Shown here in pieces: positions 15,101 to 62,815 of a DNA stretch of 64,000 nt (position 1 is the stretch's first letter; every line of letters begins with the position of its first letter). The position numbers were made by a program, and so were the translations under genes. The stretch comes from Leucoraja erinacea. Its lineage: Eukaryota. The stretch lies in contig NC_073386.1 of assembly GCF_028641065.1 (NCBI RefSeq), positions 55,428,001 to 55,492,000 of the forward strand. The letters run 5' to 3'. The notes beneath the pieces were generated by a model. The model was not told the DNA's origin. It saw only the letters and a list, made by a program, of their open reading frames with translations, and did not search any database.

Positions 15101-18100
15101 CCTCGCCCACATCTTTTCTGTGTCCTGTACATTTGCTCTCGCTCCCTCTTCCCTCCAGTCACACCAAGGATAGAGTATTCCTGGTCCTCACCTTTCACCC
15201 CACCAGCCTCCACATCCAACACATCATCCACCGGCATTTCCGTCACCTCCAATGTGATCCCACCACTAGTCACATCTTCTCATCTTTCTGCCTTCTGCAG
15301 AGACTGCTCCCTCTGCAAGTTTGTGGTTTACTCATCCCTTCTCACCATACCCCCCCCCCCCCCCCCCCCCCAGATATTTTCTCCTGCCACTGCAGGAGAT
15401 GTAACACCAGTCTTTGTGCCTCCTCCCTCCCTCCCTCCTCCCCCGACTCCATCCAGGAACTCCAGCAGTCTTTCTATGTGAAACAGAGGTTTACAAGCAC
15501 CTCCTCTAACCTCATCATCTACATTCGGCGTTCCCAATGTGGCCTGTATATCATGCTGAATACTTCCAAGCTGTACCGGATCTCTCGGTTGCTAACCATT
15601 TTAACTCACTTTCCCCCTGGGCCTCTATTACCAGAGTGAAATCGCATGCAAACTGGAGGAACAGGAACAGTAATAATATGTTGCTTAAGTAGCTTACAAC
15701 CCAATGGTATTGTATCATGAGCATTGAATTTTCCAATAGTAGGTAACTTCTACATACACCTCCCTTTCTCTTTCAGCCCAGCCCACCCCACCAAAAAATC
15801 CAACAACAAGCTTTACAGTTTGCAACTATGTATTTCCTTTGTGCTCATACCTGTTTTGATCCAGCCGGGGAACACCCTTGCCTGAGTCATCTGTTGCCTG
15901 TGATTTGACTTGCCCTCTCTTTCATTTTTTTTACTCGCTCCCCCTGCAATCAGCCTGAAGAAGGGTCCCGAGCTGAAACGTCACCTATCCATTTCAGCAG
16001 ATGCTGCCTGACCAGCTGAGTTACTATGGCATTTTGTGTCTATCTTTGATATAATCCAGCATCTGCAGTTCCTTTTTATTTGATCCAGATTACAACTACT
16101 AGGAATCTAAATTTGTTCAGCATTATTTCTTTATTAATATATATTGAGTTACTTCGTTCACCACAATTTTAAAAATGCTTTGTGCTTCCTCTAGAGTGAA
16201 AGATAGTCCATATTTATTAATGTGTAATACATTTCCCCTCCCTTCTCTTTAATATCTCGCTCTGTAAGGGAAGCATGCATACGTTAACTAATTTCTTTAT
16301 TTGTATGCATAGTATGGCATAGTATGTGCAAGCTATTACTTAAAATATAGAAAGACAGAGAGCTCCAACTCTGCTGCAAACCTGCTCGATAACCAAATTG
16401 TGTCCACCGTCTCTGCACACAACTTACTTTCCCATCTATCTGTATATTACCTGCATCTCAACATCTTTCCTATAAGATGGTGCGCGTGACTAAAACAATA
16501 CTCTAAATGTGGCCTCACCAACATTTTATATAACTATAACATGACCTCCCAACCATACTCAATACTCTCTGGTGAAGACCTTTTTGACCACCCTATCTAC
16601 CCGTGACTACACTTTCAAGGAACTATATATATACACTTCTAGATCCCTCTGGTCTACAACACTCCACATAACCCTACAATTCAATGTGTAGTTCCTGCCC
16701 ATGTTACACGTCCAAAATGTAACTCCTCACCTTTTTCTGTATTAAATTCCATCAACAATTCCTCAGCCCACCTGCCTAAATGATCAAGATCCTGCTGCCA
16801 TTTTTTGACAACCATCTTCACTATCTACAATACCACCCACTTTTGTGTTATCTGCTAACTTACTAATCATGCCATCTACGTTCTCATCCAAATCATTGAT
16901 ATAGATAACAAACGGCAATGGGCCCAGCACTGAATCATGAGGCACATTATTAGTCACAGGTTATCTTTTCATTTTATTTTTCTTTCTAGTAATTTATTGG
17001 ACAGCCTTGAATCATCCCAGGCCTGCAGTTAAGGAAATTCCCTGTGAAACACTGGCAAAACAAATTGGTGTCCCTCATTGAGAATATCAGTACAGGTGCA
17101 CAACCTTTTATCCGAAAGCCTTGGGACCAGACACTTGTCGGATTTCGGACATTTTCGGATTTCCGAATGGAAGATTTTTAGCGTAGATTAGGTAGGTAGC
17201 GCGGGCGGCTTGAAAAGTCTGGAGCGGCTGCCTCCTCCCCGGAGACCGGGGAATCATTGTAAATCATTGCATAAATGTTAGTCAGTTAGTTTGGAGGGAT
17301 TTTATGTGGTGGTGGTGGGTGGGGGTGAAGGGGGAAACTTTAATTCTTAGTCCCCTACCTGGTCGGCGACTCCCAACATCGCGGAGCTGGGGGCTCCGTC
17401 CGGCCGCGGGCGGCGCCGGTTGGAGCTCCGACCCCGGCAACTCTACCCCTGGCTGCGCGGCGCTCCAAATCCAGCGCCGCCCGCGGCCGGACGCCCGCAG
17501 CCCCAGCTCCGCGAATGTTGGGAGTCGGCGGCCACAGCGCTCCGGAGCTTACCGAACGGCGACCCGGTAAGGCATTGCCCGCTCCCCGCTGGTATCCCAG
17601 CACTGTGACGCCGCCGACTCCCAACATTCGCGGAGCTGGGGCTGCGGGCGTCCGGCCGCGGGCGGCGGTGGATTTGGAGCACCGCGCAGCCAGGGGTAGA
17701 GTTGCCGGGGTCGAAGCTCCAACCGGCGCCGCCCGCGGCCGGACGCCCGCAGCCCCAGCTGGGAGTTGGCGGCCACAGCGCTGCGGAGCTTACTGCACGG
17801 CGACCCGGTAAGGCATTGACCGCTCCCCGCCTCTCCGACCAGGTAGGGGACTAAGAATTAAAGTTTACCCCTTCACCCCCCCCCCCTTCACATAAAAGCC
17901 CTCCAAACTAACTGACTGACATTTAAGCAATGATTTACAGATGTTTAAGTGGGTCGTTTCGGGTCAAGTTTGGCGCCAAACGCGAGCTTTGGTGTGCAGA
18001 CAACATCCTGGAAAAAATGGCCGGTTTTCTGAGTTTTTCGGTTTCCAGAACTCCGGATAAAAGGTTGTGCACCTGTAGTTCTACTTGGGACTATTTTCCA

Positions 18101-33100: not shown

Positions 33101-35161
33101 AAATCCACAACTCACAACTCACTGGGTATAAATGTTTTTCCTCATCTCCATTCTAAATGGCCTACCCCTTATACTTAAACTCTGACACCCCCCCCCCCCC
33201 CCCCCCAACATCGGGACCATGTTTCCTGCCTCTAGCGTGTCAAATCCCTTAATAATCTTATATGTTTCAATAAGATCCCTTCTCATCCCTCTAAATTCCA
33301 GAGTATACAAGCCCAGCTGCTCCATTCTATCAACATATGACAGTCCCGCCATCCCGGGAATTAACCTGGTGAACCTACACTGCACTCCCTCAATAGCAAG
33401 AATGCCCTTCTCAAATTTGGAGACCAAAACAGCACTCAATACTCCAGGTGTGGTCTCACTAAGGTTCTGTACAACTGCAGAAGGACCTCTTTGCTCCTAT
33501 ACTCAACTCCTTTTGTTATGAAGGCCAATATGCCATTTGCTTTCGTCACTGCCTGCTGTACCTGCACGCTTACTTTCAGTGAGTGAAGAACAAGGACCCT
33601 CAGATCTCTTTGTACTTCACCTTTTAGAATAGTATAGAAGTTGGGACATGGTGCAACAGTTGTATAAGACATTGGTGAGGCCATGTTTGGAGTATTATAT
33701 TCAGTTTTGGTCACCCTGCTATTCAGTTTTGGTCACCCTGTCGCCCAATGTAGCTGAGATAGAGTTTGGGGATAGCGCCAGTGTTTGCCTGGAACAGGGA
33801 TTGTTCGATGTACCCTACAAAGAGCCAGGCATAGCTGGGGCCCATCCGAGTATAAATAGAGCTTTATACTTGTTCTGCCTGGTAAATGATAGGAAATTTA
33901 CCAGGCAGAATTCTTCTTCTTGTGTATGGTGTGCACAGCCTAAAGTAGTTTTGGTGATTAAGTTAATGTAACAAACAAGATTCCACCAGCTTGATCATAC
34001 TTGTTTCACATGATGGCTTATACAATGTTGGCTAAGGTACTGACAAACTAAATATAAATGTGTTGACAGTGTCACAGCAGTCCTACTGTTGGTACTGTAG
34101 CCACGTGCCTAGTGTTTCATCTTGCCCGTAATGATTATATAATGGGATAAGTGTGTGTGCCCATGTTTTGTCCTTTAACAGTTCAAAAAACACAGTCCAA
34201 CTGATAGTGACATTTCTTTTATTTAGCTATTTGAATTAAGCTAGTTGAATGCACATTAAATCATTACTGTGTGATATTTGTCTGTTTGCAGATTGGTGGC
34301 ACCTATGCTAAACCTGTTATATTACCTCCAGAAGCTGCTATTGGAGCTATTGGAAAGATACAGGTAAGGAAATGGTGTTATTAAACGTGTAGAAATTGCA
34401 GGCTCGAGCAGACATAAAAAGGAGATGGCAGGGTGAAGCATGTAGGGTGAACCAGAGGCAAGCATGGACAGAGCATTGGGGCAACTACCCCAAAGGAGTA
34501 CGCAGCAGTAATTGGCCACAAGGTGATTGGAAGTGGTGTGTGAAGAAGCTCAGGGTGATGAGTCAGTGCACCAGGTGGGGTGAAGCATGAACAGGCTGCA
34601 AAGGTTGCATGAAGCAAGAGCAAACCTCACATGCAGCAGAGAGGAGAGGAGAGCAGAGGGAGCAGTATGATTTGGCGAGGATCTGGCTGGCCAATTCAGT
34701 GAAGATCCGGCAGACTTGAACGGGTGATGGCCCAGCAGACCTAGTATGGTTAACCAGGAACAAGGATGGACAGAGCAAAGTGGCAACCGACCAAGGAGTG
34801 CATGACAGCAATCAGTCGTGGGGTAAAGCAGAATAGGATTAGCGTGGATAGGTGTAGAGTGGCATGAGCGTGTTGGGCAAATGACTGCTTTCTGTGCTGT
34901 AAGATAGGATTAACACAACTGCAGTTTGCAAAAAAATTATTCTTCAACTTTTCCCACTGACTTCCCCTAATTTCTGACTGTATTACTCTTTAGGTTCTCC
35001 CCCGATTTAATGACAATGGTGAAATAATCAAGGCTCAAATCATGAATATTAGCTGGTCAGCTGATCACCGGATTATTGATGGTGCAACTATGGCCCGTTT
35101 TTCAAATCTTTGGAAATTTTACTTGGAGAATCCCGCAACCATGCTGCTCGACTTAAAGTAA
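1708..35161 (+). CDS. DBT: DBT, E2 subunit (dihydrolipoamide branched-chain transacylase) of the BCKDH complex; full spliced CDS, 11 exons, 1494 nt, 497 aa
   Basis: join(1708-1788,11266-11386,11481-11556,18220-18401,22049-22176,25745-25973,28469-28635,29299-29376,31597-31788,34292-34363,34994-35161). All introns are GT-AG and phases are compatible. Contains the lipoyl motif [13 protein letters not shown], the subunit-binding motif [25 protein letters not shown] and the catalytic [10 protein letters not shown]. Confidence 0.97.
3430..4015 (+). mobile_element. Decayed CR1 LINE, reverse transcriptase fragment
   Basis: Remnants of [15 protein letters not shown](DD)TKVG and LYKVL in shifting frames. 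Confidence 0.8.
4247..6500 (+). mobile_element. 5'-truncated, frameshifted Rex1/Babar-type LINE
   Basis: [63 protein letters not shown]; 3' (GACTT)n tail. Confidence 0.85.
6719..7954. mobile_element. Non-autonomous TcMar-Tigger (Tigger4/Zombi-like) element with palindromic GC-rich interior, copy 1
   Basis: 22-bp TIRs CAGGTGCACAACCTTTTATCCG with TA on both flanks; one end (..TTATCCGAAAGCCTTGGGACCAGA..CGGATTTCGG) resembles recalled MER46/Tigger4 ends; no transposase. Confidence 0.85.
9311..9513 (+). mobile_element. Solo Penelope-like terminal-repeat insertion with 9-bp TSD, containing a minimal hammerhead motif
   Basis: CTGCAGTAG duplicated at 9302-9310 and 9514-9522; same repeat as the PLE ends near 12920 and 15945. 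Confidence 0.75.
9423..9458 (+). ncRNA. Putative minimal type I hammerhead ribozyme
   Basis: CTGAAGA-A-GGGC(TTCG)GCCC-GAAA-CGTT: CUGANGA and GAAA core, 4-bp stem II, palindromic ACGT stem III; stem I is weak; activity untested. Confidence 0.6.
11266..11386 (+). CDS. DBT: DBT exon 2 ([19 protein letters not shown]...LRTSA)
   Basis: Pyrimidine tract + CAG acceptor, G|GTAACT donor; resembles human ICVRYFQTCGNVHVLKPNY. Confidence 0.88.
11481..11556 (+). CDS. DBT: DBT exon 3 ([26 protein letters not shown])
   Basis: Start of lipoyl domain; TAG acceptor, TG|GTGAGT donor; preceded by a 94-bp intron. Confidence 0.96.
12385..16080 (+). mobile_element. Decayed Penelope-like element (RT + GIY-YIG) with direct terminal repeats and an inverted partial repeat at the 5' side
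   Basis: RT remnants [20 protein letters not shown] and [12 protein letters not shown]; GIY-YIG region [19 protein letters not shown]. Direct repeats at ~12660-13080 and ~15740-16080 each carry a degenerate hammerhead; inverted copy at 12385-12495. Confidence 0.8.
14764..14957 (-). mobile_element. Short 5'-truncated A-tailed retroposon 3' end inserted in the PLE
   Basis: 16-bp TSD CTCTTGTAAAGATGCT at 14748-14763 and 14958-14973; AATAAA and A-rich tail on the minus strand. Confidence 0.75.
16380..16960 (-). mobile_element. Decayed CR1 RT fragment
   Basis: Reverse complement gives [37 protein letters not shown]. Confidence 0.75.
17093..18075. mobile_element. Non-autonomous TcMar-Tigger (Tigger4/Zombi-like) element, copy 2, inverted relative to copy 1
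   Basis: Same 22-bp TIRs and TA flanks (17091-17092, 18076-18077); the GAAAGCCTTGGGACC end is on the left here and on the right in copy 1. Confidence 0.85.
18220..18401 (+). CDS. DBT: DBT exon 4, lipoyl-lysine domain
   Basis: [39 protein letters not shown]...; TAG acceptor, GTACAT donor. Confidence 0.97.
18578..18925 (+). mobile_element. tRNA-derived HE1/V-type SINE (related copies at ~19085-19400 +, 41540-41740 +, 46670-46960 -, 56655-56915 -)
   Basis: Box-B-like GAGTTCGATCCC, V-domain-like TTTGTACGTTCTCC..TTCTCCG..CGGTTTTTTCCCACA, CR1-like GAAGGGCCTGTTTCC and (CTAAA)n tail. Confidence 0.75.
19205..19342 (-). mobile_element. ~140-bp (GAA)n-tailed short retroposon (second copy 49681-49820 +, fragment ~33911-33945)
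   Basis: The two copies align over their length; flanked by the near-duplication CAGC(G/A)TGGACT inside a host SINE. Confidence 0.7.
22049..22176 (+). CDS. DBT: DBT exon 5
   Basis: [39 protein letters not shown]; TAG acceptor, GTAAGT donor. Confidence 0.95.
23591..23898 (-). mobile_element. CR1 3' end, same subfamily as 8729-9020
   Basis: Near-identical to 8730-9015; (AGAAACAT)n tail; inserted in a PLE-type repeat. Confidence 0.88.
23922..25457 (-). mobile_element. Tc1 (DD34E-type, IR/DR) transposon with frameshifted transposase
   Basis: TIRs CAGTGCCCTCCATAATGTTTGGGACAAAGACCCATC.. with TA flanks; inner repeat at ~24111; transposase pieces [64 protein letters not shown]. Confidence 0.93.
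25745..25973 (+). CDS. DBT: DBT exon 6
   Basis: [36 protein letters not shown]...GKDRTEAVK; CAG acceptor, GTAAAG donor. Confidence 0.96.
26680..27410 (-). mobile_element. Rex1/Babar-type LINE 3' fragment
   Basis: [22 protein letters not shown] on the minus strand. Confidence 0.75.
28469..28635 (+). CDS. DBT: DBT exon 7
   Basis: [28 protein letters not shown]...[10 protein letters not shown]; CAG acceptor, GTGAGG donor. Confidence 0.97.
29299..29376 (+). CDS. DBT: DBT exon 8
   Basis: [26 protein letters not shown]; CAG acceptor, GTATAA donor. Confidence 0.96.
29750..30870 (+). mobile_element. Rex1/Babar-type LINE 3' fragment
   Basis: [29 protein letters not shown] and [17 protein letters not shown]; tail GACAATAAA..CTTGATC. 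Confidence 0.8.
31597..31788 (+). CDS. DBT: DBT exon 9
   Basis: [24 protein letters not shown]...[11 protein letters not shown]; CAG acceptor, GTCAGT donor. Confidence 0.97.
31967..32246. mobile_element. PIF/Harbinger-type MITE
   Basis: Imperfect TIRs AGGCCCTGTCCCA / TTGGACAGGGGCT with TTA on both flanks. Confidence 0.7.
32886..33625 (-). mobile_element. CR1 LINE 3' part
   Basis: [15 protein letters not shown] and [13 protein letters not shown]; (AGACAAT)n tail. Confidence 0.88.
34292..34363 (+). CDS. DBT: DBT exon 10
   Basis: [24 protein letters not shown]; CAG acceptor, GTAAGG donor. Confidence 0.97.
34994..35161 (+). CDS. DBT: DBT exon 11, catalytic His motif and stop
   Basis: [55 protein letters not shown]; AATAAA at 35350. 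Confidence 0.97.
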
Positions 35162-35969
35162 ATGGAGGTGATTGATGCACGGCACTTAAGACAGACAGAC
35201 AGCTTCGAGCAAAGGGCATTTGCTGTTGTTTACATGTAATTAAGTGCACTTGTAATCTTCCCTGTAATGTTTTGTATTCTGAACAGTAATGTGCTTAAGC
35301 CACATTGTATTCTGTAGAGGTTACAGTAGGTTAGAGCTCTTTCAATAATAATAAATGGTGGAAGGGATACAGTTGGTGAAAGGTGAGGTTTATCGTGAAT
35401 ACTGGTTAAAGTAGTAACCTGTTAGGTCATCTCCATACCACCCCAAATCCCTCTAACAATAATAGGTCATTGTGGAACTTTGACAATTGCAGCATCTGTT
35501 TTAAATGCATAAGCAAAGGCCATGACCCATATAAACACGATTGTTGTCTAATGTGGCTTCTATAATTGATCCTTGAGCACTGGAAACTATTGTAAGCTAT
35601 CAAAATATGCTCATCCCTGTTACATAATGGATGCATAAATTGTCCCTTGTACAGTTTTACAAATTATGAAATGTTAGAGATATACAGAACCATAGGATAC
35701 TTATTCAACTGCACCGTTGCAAACACTAATAATTCTGCAGTATTAAAGTTTAGGAGGAAGGAAGTATATGGTAATCAGGGGGTTAATATAGTTTTATTAA
35801 TGACTGTTTCCTGGTTCTGATGACATGAAAAACACTGTATTCCAACTTTAATTTTAAAAAGGTACAAACATCATGTGCATAATATTCTGATCTCCAAAAG
35901 GTTAGTTACAATAAACATTTACTGTGATATATCATTTGAATTTTATTTCAACTTGTCATGTTTTCAATC

Positions 35970-36665
35970 TCTGGGTGGAGCCCGTAATGGCCGCCTCGCC
36001 AACAGCCCATTGCGTCCCTTCTCTGTTTTTATTATTTTAAGTATGTCTTTAATGTATGTTTCAATGTTTCTAGGTTAGTTTATGTGGGGGGGAGGGGGGG
36101 CGGAATACAGAGAAACTTTTTTTCAGTCACTTTCCTCGACGGAGATGCGATTTTCTCCGTTTCGCATATTCGCCCACCCCCCCTAACAACTTGGATTGGT
36201 GCGGCCTTTCCTGGAGACCGGTCTGGAGCTTCAAGCCGCTGGCGCGGTGAGAACTTGCCATCGTGGAACGGGTGATCCTTTGCCGAGGGTCACCAGAAGA
36301 AGAGCTCCAACCACGGGGCCTGTGGACTTTAACACCGTGAAGCCTGCGGTCTCCGGTAAGAAGTGGCCGATTCGGGAGCTCCATGCCGCGGAGTGTTGCA
36401 ATCTGTCCCGTCGCCGGGTTTCAATCATCCCGACAAGAGGGCCTGGACATTGGACCGTCGGCAGTGGCGAACTGCGGAGGGTTCAAGGCCACAACCACGG
36501 TGAACAAAGAGGAAGATGACTGAACTTTGTTGCCTTCCACTGTGGTGGATGTTTATGTTAAATTTTATTTTATGTGTGTATTGTGTTCTTTTCAACTTAC
36601 TATGGCTGTATTTCACTGTACCTTAGTTGGTTAAGTGACAATAAACGCAAACTTGAACTTAAACA
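35970..36665 (+). mobile_element. GC-rich non-autonomous retroelement with a Rex1/L2-like 3' tail, downstream of DBT
   Basis: CpG-rich block in AT-rich DNA ending TTCACTGTACC..GTGACAATAAA..(AACTTG)n like the LINE tails at 220-260 and 43860-43895; no ORF; boundaries approximate. Confidence 0.5.
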
Positions 36666-38975
36666 ATTTGTAGCATTCCTTTTGTATAAGACTTGAATAA
36701 AATATACTTTGCATCTACAGTACATGTATAGTTAATAAAGAGGACGTGGAGAACAACGAGATTGGAGTAGGGAATACTAAAATGCTAGGGTAGTTTGAGA
36801 TCAAGGTCCTGGTGGTGTTGGTCTTCAAGAGCATTAAGGTGTATAAATTCTCAGGACCTGATAGGATCCATCCCATGTTACTGAGGAGAGGGGCCTCAAT
36901 GAGGAACTTTGTATCTTCTCTAGAAACAGCGAGGTCCCAAAGGACTGGAGAGTAGCTAAAGTGGTGCCTTTGTTTAAGAAGGGATGTAGAAATATTCAGG
37001 TAAGTGAGTCTGGCATTTGTGGTAGGGAAGCTTTTGGTAGGGGATTCTCGGAGAGGTGAACAAGGAACTGCAGCTGTTTGTTTAAATAAAAGACACACAG
37101 AGTAACTGAGTGTAGTCCTGATGGGGTACAAGGGAGAGAGGGGGAGAAAGGGAAGGTGGGGGGTCGTTACATAGAACAATACAGCATATTAACAGGCCCT
37201 TCGGCCCACAATGTTTGTGCCAAACATGATGCCAAGCTAAACTGATCTCATTTGCTTGTACATGATCCAGAGCCCTCTATTCCCTGCACATCCATGCCTG
37301 TATCCAAAAGCCTCTTAAATGCCACAGTGCTTTTCAGGCCCCACCATTCTGTGTAAAAAGATTTGCCCCGTACATCTCTATTGAACTTTCCCACTCCCAC
37401 CTCATAGTATTGGACATTTCCACCCTGGCGAAAAACGATTCTGACAGTGTACCCTATTCTATGCCTTTCATAATTCTATATACTTCTATTAAGAAGAAAA
37501 AGTAAAAACATTGAAGCAAGTTGAACAAAAATGAAAGCTATAACTAACTATTGTACTTGGCTGGATGTAAAAGTGAGCCTAAATGAAATTTATGTTTATC
37601 TAACATTACGTTGAGTTTCATTTTCTTGCACCAGGACAGATTCCATAGTGTTTGGTTCAAAACCTTATGCAGCGTTAAAGCATTTAAGATTTAGCAATTA
37701 CATTTGACAAGCTCAATGTACTTAAATAAATCACACTGAAACATACCAATGTGTTGGAAAATTCTCTGTGCATTTTTAAGTAAAAGATTTGGCAATTGAC
37801 CTCAGCCTGCCTTGTTGCTCAAGTGTCTGCTGATAAAATGAGATGCATATTGTTAAATAGTTTATATTTGAAGGATTTCTCTACTTGTGGACCAACTCGG
37901 ACATTACAATTTATCATTGTCAATTGACTTGAACATTAGCTGTTATTGGCTGTGATTATAGAGCAACATCTGCATAGAAACCTCGGAACAAAACCACTAG
38001 TGATCCAATGGTTAACATAAAGGTAACTGCTTATGCTCTTGAAAGAATAAGGTGCAGGAGGAAATCAGCATTGACTCAGAGAGTCACAACGCATGAGTAA
38101 CTACTGTGGAAACAGGCGCTTCGGTCTAACTTGCCCACGTTGACCGACATCTACACTAGTCCCATCTGCCTGCGTTTGGCCCATATCCCTCCAGGCCTAT
38201 CATATCCATTTACCGTTCTAAATGGTTGTTAAACATTGTGATAGTACATGCCTCAACTACCTCCTCTGGCAACGCGTTCCATACACCTGCCACACTTTGT
38301 GTAACAGAGTTGCCCCTCGGGTTCCTATTAAATCTTTCCCCTTTCACATTAAACCAATATCCTCTGGTTCTCGATTCCCCTACTCTGGGTAAAAGACTGT
38401 GCATCAACCCCTTAGATCTTTCCCCATTGTCATTTTCGACAATTCCAATTATATCTGCATTGGACTGCATAATAATACAATTAATACTATAGATACCTGG
38501 ACGCGTTTGTCGACTAGTTCTGTACTAGTTTGGCATGCGTTACCAGGGTTTAAAATCCATGGAGTAAGTGTTCAGGCTGGAGAGGAAAGGTCAGACTAAG
38601 GCACTTGGACGGTTGACTGTGTGAGCAGCGAGCTAGCTGGGTTGCTGAAATAAATACATTGCTGTTCTCGGGCCGCGAGATCGGTTTCTGTCAAGTGTGC
38701 CCTCCAACTATAGACGGAATCCGAAGATTCCTCCTTGCAGTCTGGAGACCTGTCAACCCCCGGAAATCTCCGCGTAGGCTGATCAACTGGACAGTTGCTG
38801 CTGCGACCGCCCAGGTTGGCTCTGTGGAGATTTACAACGCGGTTAATCCTACCCCTGTTAAGGGCACAGCGACATTTGACTTGCACCGTTCCAGTCGGAG
38901 AACTGCTCAGTGCTTTCTCTCTCTCTCCCTCTCTCTCTGTATCCCCGCCGCGGTCGCCTGCTTTTCGAGAGAGCA

Positions 38976-39578
38976 ATGGGAAGCCACGGTTTCGGCGAGA
39001 CGGAAAGATTGAAGAAGTGTAAGAGTTTCCAGGAACTCCGTGTGGCCAAGACGCAGAGCGCCCTGCCCCGCAAAGGATGGGGTTCGGTTCTAGCGGGCAG
39101 CGAGATGCAACGACAGCAGAGCAGGTTGCCGGCCAAGAGGGACAAGGAGAAGAGGCGTCAGGACCACCGGACAGTACAGAGCCAGCGCTCCAAGCCCGGC
39201 ACCAGCAGCACCAGGCTAGCCAGTCCCACTGGGAACATGTACGAGCCCCGACCCGCCAGGTCCTTCTCGGCGGTGGAAGCCCGGGCTGCGATGCGCTCAG
39301 TGCTGGAGGCCAAGCTGAACGGTGCCAAGTATGAGCCCCAGGGCTCTGCGCTGGCGGCCGTGGAACTGGCCGAGTGTGTGAAGAAGGCAGTGAAAGCTTT
39401 GGGTTACGAGAGGTACAAGATCGTGTGCTACTTGGTGCTGGGGGCGACGAGGCCCTCTGGTCTCTCGTGTTCCAGCAGAGCCGTGTGGAGTCCGGCCGTC
39501 GACACCTATGCTGAATTTTGCTTCCAGAACGATTCGCTGTTCGCACTCTGCCTGGTGTTTGCCTTGTACCACGAATAA
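38976..39578 (+). CDS. Intronless Tctex-1 domain protein (dynein light chain Tctex-type, DYNLT/TCTEX1D-like), 200 aa
   Basis: Uninterrupted ORF with a good Kozak context (GCAATGG). The C-terminal ~110 aa has Tctex-1 hallmarks (VLEAKLNGAKYEP..LAECVKKAVKALGYERYKIV..SRAVWSPAVDTYAEFCFQNDSLFALCLVFALYHE). CpG-rich; AATAAA at 39756. Paralog identity is not resolvable by eye. Confidence 0.88.
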   Translation: MGSHGFGETERLKKCKSFQELRVAKTQSALPRKGWGSVLAGSEMQRQQSRLPAKRDKEKRRQDHRTVQSQRSKPGTSSTRLASPTGNMYEPRPARSFSAVEARAAMRSVLEAKLNGAKYEPQGSALAAVELAECVKKAVKALGYERYKIVCYLVLGATRPSGLSCSSRAVWSPAVDTYAEFCFQNDSLFALCLVFALYHE

Positions 39579-41779
39579 CGTCCCGCAAGCTCTTGCAAAT
39601 CATGGAAATCGTTTGAAAAATCGAAGAAATTCTTATCGCCCGAAAACTGCGAGAAAAAAAAATCAGGATTAAGGCTCCAACCGGAGACTCTTTCAGATAT
39701 TGAGCGCTTGAAGGACTATCCAATGGTCGTCTAATTACAGTAGGACTTGCTAGTTAATAAAGCTAACAGTCTAGGGGCATGTTAGAGAATGGATACAGAG
39801 AGACTGCTGAGACACAAGAGATCAAACAGAAAGAATGAAACACTGTAACCGGGTTGTTATTCACCTAGCGCCCAGTCTGTTATCAGAAATGCAAGTTTAA
39901 ATTTCACACAAATTCAGTTGCCATTTGTTATTTCTCCATTTATTGTTCATCCTTTGCATTTAAAAAAAGTTAATTCATCTCAGCGTTTCCTCTGTTTTCA
40001 CAAATCCACGATTTCTGTAACGAAACCCAAAGCGTTTAGTGAAATGTCGGAGCTCCATCGCAACCTTAAATATTTAAAATCTACCCCTGTGAATCACGTG
40101 AGTTGAATGTTTTCTTGAAAAAAGAATGCAGAGGTCATGCCATTTGATTTGCTATTTACATTTTCTTCTTCAGATCTGCCTAAGTTTCACTCCATTTCTA
40201 TCGGGCTTGTGCCAATTGGCCAGAGTAGCTGCAACCTGGAATGATTCATTGATTCTAACTGTCACATGTATCAAGATGCAGTGAATGCTTTGTTTTGAAT
40301 ACAACACGGTAAAATCATACAGCAGACCAACTAGGCAGTACACAAGAGTCGCCATGTTTCTGGCACCAACATAGTTTTATCTTTTGCTAGCAGAAGCGAT
40401 CCAGGTCCCCCCTTCCATCTATGCGACCACCCCCGGCAGGGAGCTCTCGGCAGCGCAGATCCCCTTCTCGTTTGCGATGATCAACCTTGCTCTCGACAGC
40501 CTCTTCGCTCTCGATTGTCCACCTCATTCTCGACAACTCGTGCAGAAGGGCAGTCATCAAATGCAGTTAGTTTCACGTACAAAGATATTCTCTACTGTTG
40601 CTCCAGTGTTCCCTGATCAAATGAAGACGGTGTAGCCAATAAAGAGGATCTCGCCATACAAGATTCAAGATTCAAGATTCAATTTAATTGTCATTTGGAC
40701 CCCTTGAGGTCCAAACGAAATGCCGTTTCTGCAGCCATACATTACAAACAAATAGACCCAAGACACAACATAATTTACATAAACATCCATCACATCGCTG
40801 TGATGGAAGGCCAAAAAAACTTTTGATACAGAGTTTGCTGGTGCTTTAAACTAGAATAATGGAGAGATAGAACAGGAACAGACGCTTCGGCCCACAATTT
40901 CTGTGCTGGACATGATGCCAAGCTAAACTAATTTTAGTTGCTTGTACATGGTCCATATCTCCCCATTCCCTGCACATCCATGTGCATGTCTAAAAGTATT
41001 TTAATGCCAGTATCATATCTGCCTCAACCAGCACCTACTTAGGCAATGCTTTTATTTTGTGTAATATAATATTGTGTACTGTACCCTATAATGATCAGTT
41101 TTGTTTCACTTTATGAGTTGTTGTTATCAGTTCCAGTAGGCACATTGCATGCTGAAAGAAATCACAAATATTTAACAGTTTGTTCCCAACCCAACCTATT
41201 TTAGAGTCATAGATTGATGCAGTGTGGAAACAGGCCCTTCGGCCCAACTCTCCCCCACTAGCCAACACGTAAAATCATCAACTATTCTATTTATTTCAAA
41301 CAGTGCACATATTGTATTGTGACTGACATTTTTATTTTTTGAACAAGTTATTTGAAGAACTGCTCACAACAAGACCAATTAATTTAATTGGATTAATTGG
41401 TTAATTTGTAGTTTGGTTAACTACAAAATTGACTTCCAAGATATAAAGATTTTGAACAATATATATTTATTAAGAGACAACATTTTCCACCTTATTCATT
41501 AATGCTACACAATATTTACAATATTTGTTGGTTAGATGGCACAGGTGCGGAGCTGGTAGAGCCTGGGTTCAACCCTGACCTCGGGTGCTGTCTATGTGGA
41601 GTTTGCATGTGACCACTGGGTGCTTTGGTTTCCTCCCACATCCCAAAGACATATGGGTTTGTAGTTTAATCCACCTCTGTAAATTGCCCCCCTGTGTGTA
41701 GGGAGTGAATGAGGAAGTGGGATACCATAGAACTAGCATGAACTCCTTGACCACTGCTACATAACCACCAAAAATGCAT

Positions 41780-45810: not shown

Positions 45811-62815
<17,005 letters not shown>

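What the first reader, a model, noticed from the sequence alone, without database searches (positions are those of the whole stretch)
38976..39578. Intact intronless Tctex-type dynein light chain gene between DBT and LRRC39
Seen: an uninterrupted 200-codon ORF with a good Kozak context, its own CpG-rich surround (~38650-39650), a downstream AATAAA, a basic low-complexity N-terminal ~85 aa and a complete Tctex-1 domain. Known: in mammals DBT and LRRC39 are neighbours, and I recall no Tctex gene between them. The domain mixes features of several paralogs: LVFALYHE resembles DYNLT2/TCTE3, NDSLF and GYERYKIV resemble DYNLT2B/TCTEX1D2, and the intronless CDS resembles DYNLT4/TCTEX1D4. Inference: a lineage-specific retrogene, or an old DYNLT paralog lost in mammals, plausibly ciliary or sperm-related. 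Retained CpGs and an open frame amid decayed repeats argue against a dead pseudogene.
Basis: partly seen in the sequence, partly recalled or inferred. Interest (0 to 1): 0.7.

Follow-up and report, generated by a model that had tools for sequence, protein, structure and literature searches.

The report
Dynein light chain lost in amniotes
This is an intact, transcribed skate gene for a Tctex-type dynein light chain that is none of the six kinds known in humans; it is shared with sharks, many fishes and amphibians, is likely lost in reptiles, birds and mammals, and likely works in the motors of cilia or sperm tails.

Summary
The ORF is real: 200 codons, single copy, Tctex-1 domain (E 8e-21), 3.8 kb after DBT, upstream of an LRR gene, with its own strand-specific RNA in 2 of 3 raw RNA runs. 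It is neither a skate retrogene nor a pseudogene. Orthologue-like proteins occur in sharks, rays, coelacanth, lungfish, amphibians, bichir, sturgeon, bowfin, eel, shad, characins, catfish and zebrafish; they form one clade (100/100). The skate has separate DYNLT1, 2, 2B, 3, 4 and 5-like genes elsewhere, only 28-33% identical in the domain (DYNLT1/3-type 16-21%), so RefSeq's names '2B' and '5-A' are wrong. No named amniote or euteleost member was found, and a 2023 synteny screen lists the Xenopus orthologue as absent from amniotes in one supplementary row. The clade groups with 21 non-vertebrate-like proteins (98/100), but AU tests reject only DYNLT5 as its sister. Likely role: a tissue-restricted LC2-class light chain of a ciliary or flagellar dynein (inferred, untested). 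Verdict: an overlooked old paralogue of a known family; modest interest.

The parts
38976..39578 (+). Single-exon coding sequence of a 200-aa Tctex-type light chain (P0001)
   Evidence: single copy in the genome
38976..39233 (+). Basic, predicted disordered N-terminal tail (residues 1-86, net charge +13); fast-evolving; no RVxF and no [RK][RK]x[ST] motif in this protein
39234..39575 (+). Tctex domain (residues 87-200): two helices and four strands; clade-invariant residues include C165, S167, R168, D176, E180, N185, C192 (49 of 49 vertebrate members aligned)
38501..40000 (.). CpG-rich surround (o/e 0.72-0.94); likely holds the promoter and 5' end, start site not mapped
   Evidence: no RFX or FOXJ1 site above background
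38920..40124 (+). Stretch covered by strand-specific RNA reads, separate from DBT (zero depth at 37715-37955 and 38438-38919 in run X19)
39756..39761 (+). AATAAA; RNA continues past it, use as poly(A) signal not shown
34994..35161 (+). Last coding exon of the upstream DBT-like gene (neighbour, and strand control for the RNA lay)
54979..59682 (+). LRR exons of the downstream gene (LRRC39 by recall and position; neighbour)

Best explanation
This is an intact, single-copy, transcribed gene for a Tctex-family protein that forms its own jawed-vertebrate clade apart from the skate's six named DYNLT-like genes, is likely lost in amniotes, and likely acts as a tissue-restricted light chain of a ciliary or flagellar dynein. 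Shown: frame, domain, fold, RNA, clade, separate loci for the named paralogues. Inferred mechanism: like DYNLT2B and algal LC2, its domain would pair with a DYNLT1-type chain as a domain-swapped heterodimer; the edge strand would clamp the N-terminal segment of a dynein intermediate chain at the base of the light-chain tower; the basic disordered tail would be a flexible, lineage-variable contact or regulatory arm. Its distinct loop and strand residues (loss of the usual Gln at 161, Glu180, Cys165, Cys192) would give it a partner preference different from DYNLT2B, 4 and 5.
For: Domain and fold: (best structural matches are Tctex chains of axonemal dyneins and the DYNLT1:DYNLT2B crystal; 27-34% identity to LC2/2B-class chains against 11-21% to Tctex1-class chains). 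Clade: 25 of 25 and 12 of 12 vertebrate rows on one branch, 100/100. Constraint: domain 79-90% identical across 11 sharks and rays against 40-64% for the tail; 65% to coelacanth, 48-55% to amphibians; two copies kept in Xenopus laevis and in paddlefish. Named paralogues lie elsewhere: DYNLT2B-like on C14, DYNLT2-like on C8 about 23 kb from a DUF4209 gene, DYNLT5-like and DYNLT4-like on C10 (the VSFSGLPL motif of L001 matches the DYNLT4 motif printed in PMC3654263). RNA. Loss: no named amniote among the 12 representatives at E<=1e-30 (11 named, 1 unnamed), the 51 hits or the 25 hits; PMC10416458 Table S1 row 1800 lists XP_004913533.1 (= P0201) with orthologues in Danio and Latimeria and in none of the amniote columns. 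Heterodimer precedent: passages of PMC10987677.
Against: No direct sign of ciliary function: tissues of the RNA runs are not given, no RFX or FOXJ1 site above background, and the tail lacks a conserved PKA or RVxF motif. DYNLT4 and DYNLT5, equally close in sequence, are themselves 'not well characterized' and Tctex chains also work outside dyneins (PMC8754002). The clade has lost Gln161, kept in 104 of 118 other Tctex rows, which could mean it no longer binds intermediate chains. RNA depth is low (1.7-4.7 in X19). The word-based searches are leaky: one search returned only 7 of its own 14 query rows, one search returned no shark, and chimaera and gar were not seen either. The published screen has false positives (it lists sass6 as lost in placentals).
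Confidence: 0.5

Rival explanations
1. Same old paralogue, but it works outside axonemal dynein: a cytoplasmic dynein cargo adaptor or a dynein-independent dimerisation hub, as reported for DYNLT1 and DYNLT4.
For: Altered loop and edge-strand residues against all other Tctex rows; no ciliary promoter motif; PMC8754002 describes non-dynein roles of light chains; PMC3654263 describes DYNLT4 as a PP1 and endoglin partner.
Against: Closest solved relatives are all axonemal or dynein-2 chains; no RVxF motif in 49 of 49 tails; RNA is absent from one run with good DBT depth, which fits a restricted tissue.
Confidence: 0.3
2. It arose in early vertebrates as a duplicate or retrocopy of DYNLT4, DYNLT2 or DYNLT2B and diverged fast; the grouping with non-vertebrate proteins is an artefact. 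This concerns origin, and is compatible with either function.
For: AU tests do not reject sisterhood with DYNLT4 (p 0.19), DYNLT2B (p 0.19) or DYNLT2 (p 0.16); long stem (0.72); DYNLT4-like is also single-exon in its coding part and lies on the same contig C10.
Against: The free tree joins it to 21 other proteins at 98/100 and 100/98; shared signature: Gln161 not among the commonest residues in either group and Glu180 in 24 of 24 and 18 of 21, against 13 of 118 others; two of the 21 are named, both from ribbon worms. DYNLT5 as sister is rejected (p 0.0012).
Confidence: 0.25
3. It is the plain orthologue of DYNLT2B or DYNLT5, as the RefSeq names say.
For: Automatic names of the hits.
Against: The same clade is named 2B, 5, 5-A, 5-B and 4 in different species; the skate's own 2B-like (C14) and 5-like (C10:34.8 Mb) genes are separate and multi-exon, and only 33% and 32% identical to it.
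Confidence: 0.02
4. It is a recent skate retrocopy or a pseudogene.
For: No intron in the coding sequence.
Against: Conserved from sharks to frogs; no parent above 37% identity; strand-specific RNA. A true processed copy in this genome looks different: a truncated piece on C18, 52 of 56 bases identical to the DYNLT1-like exon.
Confidence: 0.01

Closest known systems
DYNLT2B / TCTEX1D2 (dynein-2 and inner arm I1/f) and Chlamydomonas outer-arm LC2
   Same: Tctex fold, LC2/Tctex2 class, best sequence and structure matches
   Different: About 30% identity; separate multi-exon orthologue on C14; long basic tail; different loop and strand residues
DYNLT4 / TCTEX1D4
   Same: Disordered N-terminal tail of about 90 aa plus domain; single coding exon in the skate; same contig C10
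   Different: 33% identity; no RVxF-like motif; separate locus at C10:17.9 Mb
DYNLT5 / TCTEX1D1
   Same: Source of most automatic names; same contig C10
   Different: 32% identity; multi-exon; rejected as sister group (p 0.0012)
DYNLT2 / TCTE3
   Same: N-terminal extension; the skate DYNLT2-like gene also has Glu at the position of 180 (alignment)
   Different: 28% identity; multi-exon gene on C8 near a DUF4209 gene
Xenopus tropicalis LOC101735200 (XP_004913533.1), zebrafish LOC110438299, coelacanth LOC106704240
   Same: Same clade; listed together as present in fish and absent from amniotes in PMC10416458 Table S1 row 1800
   Different: Only automatically annotated; no paper found that names or studies them. 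Linking the zebrafish and coelacanth gene ids to my protein hits is inferred.

Membership tests
Tctex-1 family (PF03645) | Pfam profile above curated cut-off | tested here: met
   74.6 bits against 22.8; orthologues 77-81 bits
Tctex-1 family (PF03645) | Two helices followed by a beta sheet, matching solved Tctex chains | tested here: met
   Model of the coelacanth orthologue, most of the domain at pLDDT 88-97, one strand region 54-71; Foldseek E 2e-10. The model of the skate protein itself was poor (mean pLDDT 47).
Tctex-1 family (PF03645) | Domain-swapped dimer with a Tctex partner | not tested
Dynein light chain (function) | Binds a dynein intermediate chain or co-purifies with a dynein | not testable with these tools
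   Needs pull-down or axoneme proteomics
DYNLT2B orthologues | One-to-one orthology: no other, closer gene in the same genome | tested here: not met
   C14 gene is the close match to human DYNLT2B (E 2.8e-9 over one 45-aa exon)
DYNLT5 orthologues | Groups with DYNLT5; no separate DYNLT5 locus | tested here: not met
   AU p 0.0012; separate locus C10:34.8 Mb; the DYNLT5 label of that locus rests on tree position and recall
DYNLT4 orthologues | RVSF-type motif region; no separate DYNLT4 locus | tested here: not met
   No RVxF in 49 of 49 tails; separate locus L001 carries the motif region
DYNLT2 / TCTE3 orthologues | Multi-exon gene beside ERMARD (linkage recalled); no separate locus | tested here: not met
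   Separate locus C8:24.39 Mb about 23 kb from DUF4209
Retrogene | Identifiable intron-bearing parent, poly(A) remnant or target-site duplication | tested here: inconclusive
   No close parent and no poly(A) tract after the AATAAA; an origin older than the shark-bony fish split would leave no such marks
Genes lost in amniotes | Absent from amniote genomes at the syntenic place | tested here: inconclusive
   Absent from protein searches and from a published synteny screen; amniote DNA could not be searched here

The most novel reading that the evidence does not exclude
The gene is the vertebrate member of an old bilaterian Tctex subfamily, separate from all six human kinds, with its own binding strand, that specialises one axonemal dynein of sperm or motile cilia in water-living animals and was lost twice, in amniotes and in euteleost fish; with the second unnamed paralogue on C39, the ancestral jawed vertebrate had at least eight Tctex chains.
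Probability: 0.25. Interest if true: 0.6.

Novelty: new member of a known kind. Interest (0 to 1): 0.35.

Why it matters
The consensus dynein nomenclature counts six Tctex paralogues from the human set (PMC8754002). A seventh that frogs and zebrafish keep, hidden under wrong automatic names, matters for reading ciliary and sperm proteomes and knockouts in those models, and it gives a ready test of how dynein light-chain make-up changed when amniotes arose. It is not a new mechanism, gene loss in amniotes is common, and the loss was already flagged by a machine screen in one supplementary row.

Tried and rejected
dN/dS could not be computed: no orthologue DNA was held; domain-versus-tail protein identity was used instead. 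Synteny in other vertebrates could not be searched directly. Promoter scan for RFX, FOXJ1, MYB and CRE sites gave nothing above background. A conserved PKA or PP1 motif in the tail was sought and not found. AlphaFold of the skate protein with the 18-row shark alignment was poor. The Atlas gave only generic Tctex clusters and could not take two further queries. The look-up of sequencing runs listed no holder on record as RNA; evidence comes from laying raw reads. The tree held a faulty DYNLT2B-like row (409 aa); it was corrected, which uses 61 rows chosen by me from the stored proteins (12 vertebrate clade, 21 sisters, 28 others). Only the best 150 of 1836 representative hits were listed. Logan contigs that carry the protein may be DNA and were not counted as expression. 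Earlier findings of the scan: none. Paper searches for a description of this paralogue found none in main texts; subscription papers are not covered, and supplements were searched for one paper only, so other tables, including the bioRxiv supplement with Dbt-region maps, may list it.

Full report
Observation. The window holds one open frame at 38976-39578 (+) that gives 200 aa. Residues 102-195 match Pfam Tctex-1 at E 8.3e-21. The start has purines at -3 and +4, an AATAAA lies at 39756, and the surround is CpG-rich (o/e 0.72-0.94 against 0.46 for the window), though other stretches reach the same values. The gene lies 3.8 kb after the stop of a DBT-like gene and upstream of LRR exons, all on +. 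The name LRRC39 is recalled and fits the Dbt-Lrrc39 linkage stated in passages of 10.1101/2024.08.30.610562. The organism is a skate by its nearest database proteins (Amblyraja radiata differs at one residue).

Expression. Raw reads were laid on 34100-41300. In the stranded run X19 the five bins from 38920 to 40124 have depth 1.7-4.7, all on the same strand as DBT (23-32), with zero depth at 37715-37955 and 38438-38919, so this is a separate + strand transcript and not read-through. The single-cell run X13 has sense reads at 39402-40124 (0.5-2.7). Run X15 has DBT at about 40 and nothing on the ORF. So 2 of 3 raw runs show it, at low depth; tissues are not given. Contig pieces of X1 (RNA only guessed) cover 38947-39093 and 39654-39898; the second crosses the AATAAA. 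No joint inside the ORF is among the 15 of 118 joints shown.

Relatives. A word-based search gave 17 hits of 703 candidates: the gene's own cluster, 15 sharks and rays (62-78%) and coelacanth. A full HMMER scan of 50% representatives gave 1836 hits, 12 at E<=1e-30; the ten new ones are from tailed frog, newt, conger, bowfin, lungfish, reedfish, cavefish, zebrafish and a catfish, one unnamed. A wider profile gave 51 hits of 1542 candidates, adding sturgeon, paddlefish, shad and many frogs; Xenopus laevis and paddlefish each keep two copies. The coelacanth domain alone gave 25 hits of 68: itself, 22 named amphibians, two unnamed. None of these names is an amniote or a euteleost. These word searches are leaky (7 of 14 query rows returned; no shark; chimaera and gar unseen), so the weight lies on the full scan and on the published screen below. 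The domain is 79-90% identical among 11 sharks and rays while the tail is 40-64%; 65% to coelacanth, 48-55% to amphibians, 40-54% to ray-finned fish. RefSeq calls members of this one clade 2B, 4, 5, 5-A or 5-B.

It is not one of the six named paralogues. The genome has one copy, with no other match above 37%. Pfam searches of the genome (20 matches of 26 candidates at E<=10) and exon reading found separate genes: DYNLT2B-like on C14 (exon match to human DYNLT2B), DYNLT2-like on C8 about 23 kb from a DUF4209 gene (the link to ERMARD is recalled), DYNLT5-like at C10:34.8 Mb, DYNLT4-like at C10:17.9 Mb (motif region as printed in PMC3654263 passages), and three DYNLT1/3-type genes. Domain identity to the first four is 28-33%. 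In maximum-likelihood trees the vertebrate members form one branch at 100/100 and join 21 further proteins at 98/100, to the exclusion of all other skate Tctex genes. Two of the 21 were looked up and are from ribbon worms; the other 19 are unnamed. Both groups lack the Gln that 104 of 118 other rows have at position 161, and have Glu180 (24 of 24, 18 of 21, against 13 of 118). With only 119 columns, AU tests reject DYNLT5 as sister (p 0.0012) but not DYNLT4, DYNLT2B or DYNLT2 (p 0.19, 0.19, 0.16). The separate identity of the gene is therefore firm; its deeper origin is likely but not settled.

What is in print. PMC8754002 (sections 14-15 and passages) counts six human Tctex genes. Searches for this paralogue by name, accession or gene id found no main-text description. 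However, PMC10416458 (abstract, passages and supplement rows) lists the Xenopus tropicalis orthologue XP_004913533.1 (LOC101735200, chr 4) in Table S1 row 1800 among frog genes present in fish and absent from placental mammals, with zero in the marsupial/monotreme, bird and reptile columns, orthologues in Danio and Latimeria, and none in tilapia, medaka, fugu or chimaera. That screen uses homology plus synteny within 5 Mb and has false positives (sass6 is in the same table). It is independent support for the loss, and it lowers the novelty.

How it most likely works. The model of the coelacanth orthologue has a disordered tail and a confident Tctex fold, with one strand region unresolved as a monomer; Foldseek's best matches are Tctex chains in axonemal structures and the DYNLT1:DYNLT2B crystal, 27-34% identical for the LC2/2B class against 11-21% for the Tctex1 class. 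DYNLT2B forms a domain-swapped heterodimer with DYNLT1, and each edge strand is predicted to bind an intermediate chain (PMC10987677 passages). A Tctex2-related outer-arm chain is sperm-specific in Ciona and phosphorylated at motility activation (PMC4427456 passages). By analogy the protein likely pairs with a DYNLT1-type chain and clamps an intermediate chain of a ciliary or flagellar dynein in a restricted tissue, its basic tail (net +2 to +15 in all 49 members) acting as a flexible arm. None of this is tested: no dimer prediction could be run, no ciliary promoter motif stands out, and the tail has no conserved PKA or RVxF motif. A role as cargo adaptor or dynein-independent hub is the main rival.

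Verdict. A real, constrained, transcribed gene; an old jawed-vertebrate Tctex paralogue beyond the six human ones, misnamed in databases, likely lost in amniotes (about 85% on the evidence here) and perhaps again in euteleosts. New member of a known family, interest 0.35.

Noticed in passing
L002 (G000:C39:11361524-11361868, +): A second unnamed, long-branched Tctex gene whose whole domain lies in one last exon after an AG acceptor; groups with none of the six named paralogues. PMC10416458 Table S1 row 1307 lists another frog Tctex gene (XP_002942890.1) as absent from amniotes and present in chimaera; whether it is the orthologue was not tested.
   Followed up: partly
L006/L007 (G000:C26:28.78 Mb, -): A third intact-looking multi-exon DYNLT1/DYNLT3-type gene besides those on C8 (38.3 Mb) and C13 (23.6 Mb); humans have two.
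   Followed up: no
L005 (G000:C18:5354968-5355081, -): 5'-truncated processed copy of the DYNLT1-like gene: runs on in frame past the exon end, 52 of 56 bases identical to the C8 exon.
   Followed up: partly
window:35162-36570: DBT 3' UTR extends at least to 36041 by a contig and probably to about 36570, with a polymorphic-looking replacement at 36154-36302 in reads of three runs.
   Followed up: no
window:6750-8000 and 17000-18000: GC- and CpG-rich tandem-like repeats of related sequence inside or near DBT.
   Followed up: no
window:38596-39603 (-): A 335-codon antisense ORF overlaps the gene; no minus-strand RNA over it in the stranded run X19, likely a by-product of the GC-rich third codon positions (GC3 0.76).
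   Followed up: partly
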